Source: Octopus vulgaris
Lineage: Eukaryota
Reading direction: 5' to 3'
DNA: 64,000 nucleotides
NCBI GenBank assembly: GCA_951406725.2
Contig: OX597814.1
Coordinates: 10,602,001 to 10,666,000, forward strand
Of this stretch, positions 49,098 to 63,657 are shown one piece after another (the stretch's first letter is position 1; every line of letters starts with the position of its first letter). Position numbers and translations under genes: made by a program. The notes beneath the pieces are model-generated. The model saw nothing but the letters and a program-made list of their open reading frames with translations. It was not told the DNA's origin and did not search any database.

Positions 49098-49620
49098 ATT
49101 GCCAGCTCACCATGTGACAGTCCCAAATCTTTCAGACCTCCTTGTCGTATTTGGCAGCTCTCATGCTTCTTTTGAGCTTTCGCTTTCGCATTCCTGGATT
49201 CGATTTATTTTTCCACCTTTCGTTCTATCTCCCTTTCTATTTCTTCCATAATTTCACATTGCTTTCCATCTCTCTGCTTTCCTTTACCAGTCCTGTAGAT
49301 CATCATTTTCTAAGTGTTATTCCTATACATGTCTTGTCTTAATACTGTCTCATAGAAGTAAGCCCTCTATTAGTATGTGTATGTTTATTTATGCAACAAC
49401 CACCTGTGTCATTACCGTCCTTTTCATTTGATCACTTATTCTCAGCAGCTTTCTGCTGTTGACGCCACCAGAATGACCAATCTAATCATTAAAGGCGTGA
49501 AACTGTCAGGATTTTTGGATGATAACTGATGGTGGAAGAACATGTCCACTTCTTGTGTGTGAATTTTCAGTGAGTTCGCTTGCCTGTGTTGTCTACAATT
49601 GTTGAAAATTATATATATAT

Positions 49621-50395
49621 ATAATAATTCTCTAAAAGAGATATAGACAGTAACTGCTCGATAACATAAGGGACTAAAGCCATCTGAATATGGCTAGGGA
49701 CAGGGCAGAGTGGTGGGGGTGTTACTGTTGCATTTAGCCCCAGGCGAACATCGACGTCACCAGAAAGGCTCGACACCGTCACGGTGCCCTTAACCTGCAA
49801 AGGGAGGTAATTCCCCGATGAAGCGGAAACCACACACGGACCATGGTTTCAAGGTGTATTGCCTATCGTCGGCGTGTGGTAGGCTTCCGCTTCCTCGACG
49901 AACTCTCACTCTGCAGGATATTCATATATAGATTTTCAAGCAAAATACATTTGCTGATTTCGAAAATCTGTTCGAAAGCAATAATAATTCTCTAAAAGAG
50001 ATATAGACAGTAACTGCTCGATAACATAAGGGACTAAAGCCATCTGAATATGGCTAGGGACAGGGCAGGGTGGTGGGGGTGTTACTGTTGCATTTAGCCC
50101 CAGGCGAACATCGACGTCACCAGAAAGCTTGAAAATCTATATATGAATATCCTGCAGAGTGAGAGTTCGTCGAGGAAGCGGAAGCCTACCACACGCCGAC
50201 GATAGGCAATACACCTTGAAACCATGGTCCGTGTGTGGTTTCCGCTTCATCGGGGAATTACCTCCCTTTGCAGGTTAAGGGCACCGTGACGGTGTCGAGC
50301 CTTTCTGGTGACGTCGATGTTCGCCTGGGGCTAAATGCAACAGTAACACCCCCACCACCCTGCCCTGTCCCTAGCCATATTCAGATGGCTTTAGT

Positions 50396-50399
<4 letters not shown>
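49621..50399. mobile_element. Family F element: 360-bp monomer, partial tandem copy and inverted copy
   Basis: 49981-50127 repeats 49621-49767 with 1 mismatch. 50127-50399 is the reverse complement of 49669-49941. Flanked by (TA)n. Confidence 0.85.
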
Positions 50400-50467
<68 letters not shown>

Positions 50468-56723: not shown

Positions 56724-58184
56724 TACAGAGAGTGTTCGGGATAAATTTTACGATTTTTATCTCTCCTTTTCTTTCGGGAACAGCTTGATGTATTGGCTAA
56801 CAATCAATGACATCGGAGAGCGTAAAGATTAAAGTTGTAATTGAGAAAACGTTAGCTAACATTGGAGGACTGGAAGCCGTCTGAATACCGAGAAAGATTT
56901 AGTTTATGTAATGAGGATTCGCGCCGGCTGTCAAAACGCAGACATCATGATTCCTTCTCAGTGTTGTGAACATTGTAAAATCTATAAGATGCAACATGGA
57001 CTTCGTGAAAACTAAGTTGCCCCAAACAGTGGTGGTCTTTTGGTATGTGTCTACCTCCCCCCAAACAGTGGTGGTCTTTTGGTATGTGTCTACCTCCCCC
57101 CAAACAGTGGTGGTGTTTTGGTATGTGTCTACCCCCCCCCCCACAACTTTAAGGAGGGTCTTAGTCTCAATTCATACGGCGATGTAAAAATTTTGGAGTC
57201 TGTGGTCAATTCTAGGCTGGAGAGAGTTGCTGCTGGAAAACCATAAGTGTGGCAACAAGATTCGCCTTTTTACCATATATCCAGAAGATATCAGAGGTGA
57301 TAATAAATCTCTGAACGAGGTATAAACAGTAACTGCACGACAATGTGAGGTATACTTGCCATCTCAATACGGCTAACCACTAAGGGTGGGTGTTACTGTA
57401 GCTTGTAGCCCCAAGGGAACATCGTCTCCAGCTGGCTTTAAGCACACTTTCTGTGCCCTTATGGTATTTAGCCCCAGGAGAACATCGTCTCCAGCTGGCT
57501 TTAGGCACACTTTCTGTGCCCTTATGGTATTTAGCCCAGGAAACACGTTCAGGCACACTTTCTGTGCCCTTATGGTATTTGCAAATACCATAAGGGCTCA
57601 GAAAGTGTGCCTAAAGCCAGCTGGAGACGATGTTCTCCTGGGGCTACAAGCCACAGTAATACCCACCCTTAGTGGTTAGCCTTATTGAGATGGTAAATAT
57701 ACCTCACATATCAGAGGTGGTTGTTTGAAAATTTCTATGCCTTCACTAGCCCCAATTTCTAGCTTCCTAATTTCCCCAAATATAATTCTATGGATTACGC
57801 TGTGCGTAAAGTAGTTGAATAAGACACCAAACTCTCTGCCTGCAAATTCAAGACTGAGTCGGTGGCCACAATCAATGAAGTCTTCGGGGATCTTCTCAAG
57901 AATACAGTGGAAAACTCATGCGCCAGGTACCGGAGCTGTTTGAGGCCGTGGTATAAGCTAAAGGCAACTACTTTGAGTAAACTACTTTCTCCCGATGCGA
58001 ACCATCATGGTACAAGGAACTCTTTTCCAATATTCAGATGATTTCAAGTCCTCCATGTCAGCTAGATTTTTCTCAACTTTGATCTTTATGCTCTCAAATA
58101 CTGTTGACTGCTCACCAATATGTCAAGCAGTTCATGAGAAAAAGGAGACATAAAAATCGTTAAATTTAACCCGAACACTCTGTA
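56724..58184 (+). mobile_element. Tc1/mariner (maT/DD37D-like) relic with long TIRs
   Basis: TA-flanked TIRs cagagagtgttcgggataaattttacgatttttatctctccttt / aaaggagacataaaaatcgttaaatttaacccgaacactctg. Remnants KTKLPQTVVVF and F*LPNFPKYNSMDYAVRKVVE (cf. WPPNSPDxNPMDY). 39-bp tandem x3 at 57021-57137. Confidence 0.75.
57300..57707. mobile_element. Family F foldback element inserted in the maT-like relic
   Basis: 12-bp TSD atatcagaggtg (57288-57299 / 57708-57719). 63-bp sub-repeats at 57406, 57469 and 57532. Palindromic apex TTTG|CAAA at 57581/57582. Homologous to 49621-49790. Confidence 0.85.
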
Positions 58185-62818: not shown

Positions 62819-63657
62819 AATGTAGGATTAAATTTTTCGAAAAAAATTCTATCAAAGGCCAGCATATTAAAAAATACCTTTCAAGGTTAAATTTATAAAC
62901 AATTTATAAGTAAGGGCAAAAGAAAAAAATTTTAATGCCAAAATATGCCGAAAATAGACACAACGTCAATAACCATGTAATTTATGACTACAAGCACGCG
63001 TTTCGAAGAAAGCCGACAGAAATTTCTAAAAAATCCCCTTATTACCATATCGCACCCGATTTCAGAGTTAGTTCATAAGAACCTGCTCTTCATCAGTGAT
63101 AATTGCGGCAAAGGAATAAGTGAAATACTTACTTACACCCATGGAAGTGGATTTATATACTATATATATACATATATATATGGATATATATATATATATA
63201 TATCAATGGAATAAAACGCAATAGAGGGCATTAAAATTTTCGGACAGATAGACGATACATAGGCGGACAAGAGAAACGATAATTAGAAGGACAGGCAAAA
63301 ATAGACGGGTTATTCTTGGCTTTCTTTCATCAGTCAAGTCCCTGAAGTCACGACCATTTCAAGTAGTTACACTTGACATGGTTCGATTTGATTTCTTCCA
63401 AAAATGTCTGTGCTAAGAGCATTAGACGTCTTTGTAAGAAAGCTAGCGAATGTGTACGGCAACAAAGACAACAAAAAAAAGAGAGAAACAAATAAACAAA
63501 AAGCGGAGAACATGGTACACAATTACGGTATTCATTTGTAAAGTGCTTGTAAGCACGCTTTGCTTACCTACGCGGTAATACTAAGATCATTCTTAAAATC
63601 GAGGTAGCTGATATTTTGTATATTTCTGTTTGACCTATATATAATATATAAGTGCAG

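What the first reader, a model, noticed from the sequence alone, without database searches (positions are those of the whole stretch)
49621..50399. Non-coding 360-bp tandem and foldback element (family F): candidate retrozyme-like or Penelope-mobilised RNA element
Seen: a 360-bp monomer (49621-49980) followed by 147 bp of a second copy with 1 mismatch, then an inverted copy of 49669-49941. It sits in (TA)n and has no credible ORF. The monomer is structure-rich: a long imperfect rod at 49794-49917 (CCTGCA..CGATGAAGCGGAA-ACCACAC / GTGTGGT..TTCCGCTTCCTCG..TGCAGG) plus hairpins AGCCAT-CTGAAT-ATGGCT, CACCG-TCA-CGGTG and TTTCGAA-aatctg-TTCGAAA. Established: partial tandem copies with an inverted 5' copy are typical of Penelope-like elements, and metazoan non-LTR retrozymes are ORF-less tandem monomers of a few hundred nt. 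Inference: a young, non-autonomous structured RNA, possibly circular, copied by a PLE reverse transcriptase. No canonical ribozyme core is visible in it.
Basis: partly seen in the sequence, partly recalled or inferred. Interest (0 to 1): 0.85.

Follow-up and report, generated by a model that had tools for sequence, protein, structure and literature searches.

The report
Penelope-spread retrozyme with variant hammerhead
This 360-base non-coding repeat carries an altered hammerhead ribozyme motif and lies in well over a thousand near-identical copies whose insertion ends match those left by Penelope-like retrotransposons in the same genome, so it is likely a small RNA parasite of those elements, probably copied from an RNA circle.

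Summary
The structure is real. It is one copy of a young family: a 27-mer of it occurs 1,490 times, in dispersed arrays of up to 11 monomers. It has a 6-bp helix I, a palindromic loop 3 and a non-canonical core, CCGACGA (U4C). Older copies have U3U4 and no copy of this family has the canonical core; sister family G does. Insertions carry the Penelope-like element (PLE) signature: (TA)n targets, 11-13-bp duplications and inverted arms. In 49 of 53 inverted arrays one end has a 43-nt tail and the other lacks it. Intact PLEs of this genome show the same asymmetry, but none shares sequence with the family, so the partner is unidentified. This locus has one hammerhead per strand and cannot release a monomer. 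Self-cleavage, expression and circles are untested. Verdict: a core-variant non-LTR retrozyme with unusually clear genomic evidence of PLE mobilisation. The scan had not noted this sequence before, but it noted ribozyme-free PLE-type tandem units in other genomes.

The parts
49621..49980 (-). Full monomer (RNA sense inferred to be the minus strand); lacks the terminal GCA of the usual tail end
   Evidence: fixed ends lie at the low-coordinate side, variable ends at the other
49981..50127 (-). Partial second monomer (147 bp), cut at the head-to-head junction; does not reach the hammerhead
50127..50399 (+). Inverted arm, copy of 49669-49941; ends 8 nt short of the usual tail-less end
49833..49878 (-). 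Type I hammerhead motif: helix I 49878-49873 with 49838-49833; core CCGACGA 49872-49866 (U4C); helix II U.U plus AGG/CCU; GAAA; helix III with palindromic CAUG loop; predicted cut between 49839 and 49838
   Evidence: activity not tested
50190..50235 (+). Second copy of the hammerhead motif, in the inverted arm; predicted cut after 50229
49794..49917 (-). Long rod: extension of helix I, which would hold the two ends of a cleaved monomer together
   Evidence: predicted folds; the role is inference
49978..50020 (-). Complete 43-nt tail segment between the two fixed insertion ends (inferred reverse-transcription start sites); truncated copy at 49621-49660
   Evidence: interpretation from PMC11167929
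49647..49728 (-). Complementary octamers 49647-49654 (inside the tail) and 49721-49728, kept in families F and G and at 7 of 8 positions in H; candidate recognition structure for the reverse transcriptase
   Evidence: sequence and alignment A1; pairing and role untested
49610..49620 (.). Left (TA)n target flank
50399..50433 (.). Right (TA)17 target flank
57300..57709 (.). Truncated, inverted insertion of sister family G, with a 12-bp target duplication and the same tail offset; too short to include its hammerhead

Best explanation
This is a protein-free tandem repeat with a variant type I hammerhead motif whose copies are inserted in (TA)n with Penelope-type ends; it is likely a retrozyme that a Penelope-like element copies in trans, probably from a 360-nt RNA circle. 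Shown: copy number, arrays, two fixed ends 43 nt apart, target duplications, the conserved hammerhead fold, and the same end geometry in intact PLEs of this genome. Inferred steps: (1) arrays with two or more hammerheads are transcribed on the minus strand; (2) neighbouring hammerheads pair through their palindromic loop 3 and cleave slowly, perhaps with protein help, releasing a 360-nt monomer that is ligated into a circle; (3) the PLE protein nicks both strands of an AT-rich target and primes at two internal start sites, one per strand; (4) each cDNA runs round the template for a variable distance and the two are joined head to head. The window locus is a product of this process but a dead end.
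For: 1,490 exact matches of a 27-mer, control 0. Among 74 arrays, 53 are inverted: 49 have one tail end and one tail-less end, 2 have two tail-less ends, 0 have two tail ends, 2 have an unclassified end (49 of 51, p about 1e-12 against independent choice). 107 of 127 fixed ends abut (TA)n; duplications of 13, 13 and 11 bp at L009, L077, L096. All 4 readable inverted pairs of intact PLEs show the same asymmetry. The literature defines this tail as PLE-specific and equal to the distance between two internal start sites. Hammerhead: 98.8% of cells paired in 15 natural copies from three families, 3 pairs with changes on both sides; loop 3 is one of four different palindromes in 316 of 320 redundant counts. 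Monomers within an array are nearly uniform, on both arms: median 1 difference within, 7 between arrays; 6 of 49 arrays fix a rare variant on both arms.
Against: No canonical core in family F: 1,223 CC, 155 UU, 0 CU; U4C considerably lowers activity in vitro. Rfam finds no hammerhead in F or in a canonical G copy. The predicted folds tie the core up in an alternative rod. In the one PLE studied in vitro, hammerhead cleavage was not needed and uncleaved RNA was the main substrate. Eight of nine frog retrozyme dimers did not cleave in vitro. One 12-monomer array (L071) is a mosaic of haplotypes, which a single circle does not explain. No PLE examined shares sequence with the family, and tail lengths do not match exactly.
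Confidence: 0.55

Rival explanations
1. Same element and same PLE mobiliser, but the template is an uncleaved linear multimer read through from existing arrays; the hammerhead is weak, protein-gated or vestigial and no circle is needed.
For: Core deviations in F and H; internal initiation needs no free 3' end and uncleaved RNA was the main substrate in vitro; mosaic array L071; young donor arrays are uniform anyway.
Against: Helix I changes on both sides and four different palindromic loops point to selection on the ribozyme fold. Arms of 9-11 monomers would need donors at least as long, while every insertion is truncated. Post-insertion variants of donor monomers are rarely seen repeated in arrays.
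Confidence: 0.3
2. Single or partial copies are inserted by a PLE and then expand into arrays in the DNA by unequal crossing-over or slippage, like a minisatellite.
For: Proposed for retrozymes by Li et al.; it would also give uniform monomers; L071 looks recombined.
Against: Both arms of inverted insertions hold whole monomers of the same haplotype and end at scattered positions; 41 of 74 dispersed young arrays already have two or more hammerheads in tandem (the sample leans towards long arrays).
Confidence: 0.08
3. The unit is the terminal repeat of a full-length PLE that was not sampled.
For: Frog retrozymes resemble PLE terminal repeats; only 75 arrays of several hundred were read; Naiad, Hydra and Poseidon families were not searched in the genome.
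Against: Monomer joins monomer precisely in all multimeric arrays; tblastn of a PLE protein against the non-PLE loci then held gave two hits, in flanks of L064 and L097; PLE terminal repeats here carry minimal U3-A8 hammerheads of another shape.
Confidence: 0.05

Closest known systems
Non-LTR retrozymes of animals (Cervera and de la Pena 2020, PMC7229834; Li, Clavereau and Pollet 2026, 10.64898/2026.07.22.740005)
   Same: ORF-less tandem monomers of 150-450 bp, GC under 50%, one type I hammerhead per unit, short helix III with a palindromic loop, duplications longer than 4 bp. A U.U mismatch at the base of helix II as in axolotl HHR_Amex2; size like the mussel retrozymes (350-390 bp).
   Different: Core departs from consensus in every counted F copy (U4C or C3U). 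Insertions show a fixed tail asymmetry and inverted arms, which I did not find described for retrozymes in the parts read. No sequence link to a PLE terminal repeat was found, unlike in frogs. Cleavage and circles untested.
Penelope-like elements with endonuclease (Craig et al. 2021, PMC8557442; Frangieh et al. 2024, PMC11167929)
   Same: Partial tandems, inverted truncated arm, tail at one end only, AT-rich or (TA)n targets, hammerhead in the repeat.
   Different: No ORF; the whole element is the repeat; tail 43-46 nt against the usual 30-40; hammerhead of retrozyme shape rather than minimal.
Non-autonomous Chlamys elements such as MRC1 (PMC8557442, passage)
   Same: [quoted passage not shown]
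   Different: Those share 3' sequence with their autonomous partner; here no such partner was found.

Membership tests
Non-LTR retrozyme | Tandem monomers of 150-450 bp, no ORF, no LTR | tested here: met
   360-bp units, arrays to 11-12 units; ORFs of 50 aa or less
Non-LTR retrozyme | Type I hammerhead fold in each unit | tested here: met
Non-LTR retrozyme | Canonical catalytic core CUGANGA...GAAA...UH | tested here: not met
   0 canonical, 1,223 U4C, 155 C3U; sister family G has canonical cores. Hence filed as a variant, not a plain member.
Non-LTR retrozyme | Two consecutive hammerheads at a locus (Li et al.'s 'active' criterion) | tested here: not met
   Not met at the window locus (one per strand); met in 41 of 74 arrays of the family
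Non-LTR retrozyme | Self-cleavage in vitro | not testable with these tools
   needs a bench assay
Non-LTR retrozyme | Expressed as linear and circular monomer RNA | tested here: inconclusive
   only contigs of runs not on record as RNA were available
PLE-type insertion | Tail at one end only, inverted truncated arm | tested here: met
   49 of 53 inverted arrays; same in 4 of 4 readable pairs of intact PLEs
PLE-type insertion | AT-rich or microsatellite target with target duplication | tested here: met
   107 of 127 ends in (TA)n; 11-13-bp duplications; family G likewise by eye
Autonomous PLE | Reverse transcriptase plus GIY-YIG ORF | tested here: not met
Derivative of a named PLE family | Shared 3' or terminal-repeat sequence with an autonomous partner | tested here: inconclusive
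   none with three C-terminal-endonuclease families; other clades not searched in the genome

The most novel reading that the evidence does not exclude
Each inverted array is the footprint of one PLE dimer priming both nicked target strands on a single circular retrozyme RNA, one subunit at each of two start sites, and rolling round it. The hammerhead has been kept deliberately slow (C3U, then U4C, never canonical in this family), working as a dimer or only when the PLE protein binds. This would be direct genomic evidence that animal retrozyme circles are rolling-circle templates for a telomerase-like reverse transcriptase.
Probability: 0.3. Interest if true: 0.75.

Novelty: new variant of a known kind. 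Interest (0 to 1): 0.5.

Why it matters
Which enzyme moves animal retrozymes, and whether their circles are the templates, is open; the papers read argue from co-occurrence and sequence likeness. Here hundreds of very young insertions carry the PLE-specific end signature, with intact PLEs in the same genome as a control. The one-tail-per-insertion rule also says something about PLE mechanism itself: the two ends are coupled. A 360-nt template, natural core variants and a published in vitro PLE assay make both questions testable. It also shows that canonical-core searches miss whole, recently active retrozyme families.

Tried and rejected
HDV-like, hairpin, twister, pistol and plus-strand hammerhead readings: considered by eye from recalled consensus features, none fitted; Rfam gave only chance matches. 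Enrichment of truncation points at the cut site: 5 of 127 against 2.8 expected, not significant. Absence of U4C reversions as a sign of selection: 0 seen, 2.6 expected, p 0.07, not significant. Partner search: GIY-YIG search and protein search found families with 781-aa, 776-aa and about 750-aa ORFs; no DNA similarity to F, G or H beyond simple repeats and one 32-nt hit at E 0.014. The published octopus Naiad end showed no match by eye and motif searches of that supplement found none relevant. A search with PF26215 was not possible, the family being absent from the library. RNA: no RNA holder listed; contigs of four runs guessed to be RNA cover the monomer and join end to start, which tandem DNA would also give. 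Locus integrity in independent DNA runs remains unchecked. Period-2 variants in L076 and L078 as a dimer circle: inconsistent, dropped.

Full report
Observation. The coordinates hold: monomer 49621-49980, a 147-bp second copy with one mismatch, and an inverted 273-bp arm with one mismatch, between (TA)n tracts. ATG ORFs inside are 50 and 43 aa. The minus strand folds better than shuffles (z -5.77) and better than the plus strand (z -3.05). The genome is 2.8 Gb. It is probably an octopus: this is inference, from an Octopus bimaculoides protein matching here at 86%.

The family. A 27-mer of the monomer occurs 1,490 times, control 0. Top copies are 96-100% identical and lie in dispersed arrays. 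I read 75 arrays, chosen from the best hits and the first listed places, so the sample leans towards young, long arrays. One degenerate locus (L122) was dropped. Of 74, 53 have inverted arms and 21 a single arm. Outer ends fall at two positions 43 nt apart, and inner ends are scattered. This makes the minus strand the inferred RNA. Of the 53, 49 have one end of each kind, 2 have two tail-less ends, none has two tails, and 2 have an unclassified end. 107 of 127 outer ends abut (TA)n; non-microsatellite sites show duplications of 11-13 bp. Fifteen inner ends scored at position 360, probably in part from short pieces missed by BLAST.

PLE signature. Craig et al. describe partial tandems, an inverted truncated arm and a 30-40-bp tail at one end (PMC8557442; passages). 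Frangieh et al. show that the tail is the stretch between two internal start sites, that both target strands are nicked and extended, and predict a dimer (PMC11167929; parts 1-2 of 4). As a control I read intact PLEs of this genome, with 781-aa and 776-aa ORFs. Their linker motif fits Neptune or Nematis as described; no tree was built. Four of four inverted pairs with both ends readable have one tail and one tail-less end in (TA)n; a fifth pair (L195/L196) had only one readable end. Offsets were 41-42 and 34-38 nt against 46 for F by the same measure (43 by BLAST), so none matches exactly. None shares sequence with the family.

The ribozyme. Comparison with sister family G, present in the window at 57300, exposed a type I hammerhead on the minus strand. 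A relaxed descriptor, written after I saw the motif, gave 3 hits in the window (two in this element) and 2 hits in 20 shuffled windows. A third family, H (618 matches of a 23-mer), has it too. In 15 copies, chosen as common intact representatives of 47 distinct sequences, 98.8% of cells pair and 3 pairs change on both sides. These are few independent events among relatives, so the shuffle counts are not probabilities. Loop 3 is CAUG, CUAG, UGCA or UAUA, all palindromes, in 316 of 320 counts (overlapping loci counted more than once). That is the shape of hammerheads that work as dimers (PMC4209133, part 1 of 4). The U.U at the base of helix II is a known tolerated feature (PMC3088659 section 8; PMC7229834 passage).

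Against activity. Genome-wide, F has 1,223 U4C cores, 155 C3U cores and no canonical core. U4C considerably lowers activity in vitro yet sufficed in vivo in a viroid (PMC3088659 passage). Rfam does not recognise F or a canonical G copy. The cut-to-cut unit folds as a stable circle (-118 against -88 +/- 5 kcal/mol in 60 shuffles), but with the core in an alternative rod. Eight of nine frog retrozymes did not cleave (preprint, parts 1-3 of 5).

Template. Among 197 near-full monomers, pairs differ by a median of 1 within an arm (224 pairs), 1 between arms (137) and 7 between arrays (18,945). The 49 arrays with two or more near-full monomers fall into 24 haplotypes. In 6 of 49 arrays with three or more segments, a variant seen in at most two arrays is fixed on both arms; two of the six share their variants. 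So both arms come from one RNA or one source locus. A circle explains this and arms of up to 11 units most simply. Read-through of a uniform donor array is not excluded, and L071 is a mosaic. The window locus has one hammerhead per strand and so cannot yield a monomer; 41 of 74 arrays could.

What is known. The element works like a non-LTR retrozyme (PMC7229834; passages and section 14), for which PLEs are the proposed mobilisers. It fails the strict core test and is filed as a variant. Searches for octopus with retrozyme, cephalopod with hammerhead ribozyme, and a five-term search (listings only) showed no description of it. The supplement of PMC7229834 could not be read, one file of PMC4209133 was not searched, preprint supplements are closed, and Dfam and Repbase were unavailable, so prior listing is possible. 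The scan holds no look-alike of this sequence but notes PLE-type tandem units without ribozyme in other genomes (unchecked).

Verdict. PLE mobilisation of a retrozyme-derived unit: about 0.9. With a circular template: about 0.55. Interest 0.5, for the clear insertion evidence, the coupled ends and the non-canonical core.

Noticed in passing
window 63050-63103, minus strand: Another type I hammerhead motif with a canonical core, in a short element between (TA)n tracts; a similar motif lies in L042. Probably a different PLE end or retrozyme family.
   Followed up: no
window 57300-57709; L051-L070: Sister family G, about 355-nt monomer, older, canonical core in several copies, 2,729 first-look candidates; internal 63-bp and about 93-bp sub-repeats in some copies.
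   Followed up: partly
L131-L160: Sister family H, about 355-nt monomer with a U3 core and UAUA loop 3, same end geometry.
   Followed up: partly
L127-L130, L197; L191-L206: Three PLE families with long ORFs, two of them young and abundant; minimal hammerheads of the U3-A8 type near the 3' end; the 776-aa family has a 3' region of about 1.5 kb made largely of microsatellite-like sequence, and the 781-aa family has an upstream frame of 400 aa or more.
   Followed up: partly
L071 (G000:C14:72705500-72712500): A 12-monomer array that mixes several haplotypes found separately elsewhere; template switching, conversion or assembly mixing.
   Followed up: partly
run X2: A run under a different organism label holds the whole monomer with three differences, hinting that the family also occurs in a related species.
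   Followed up: no
window 57020-57140: 39-bp tandem repeat, 3.1 copies, just upstream of the family G insertion.
   Followed up: no
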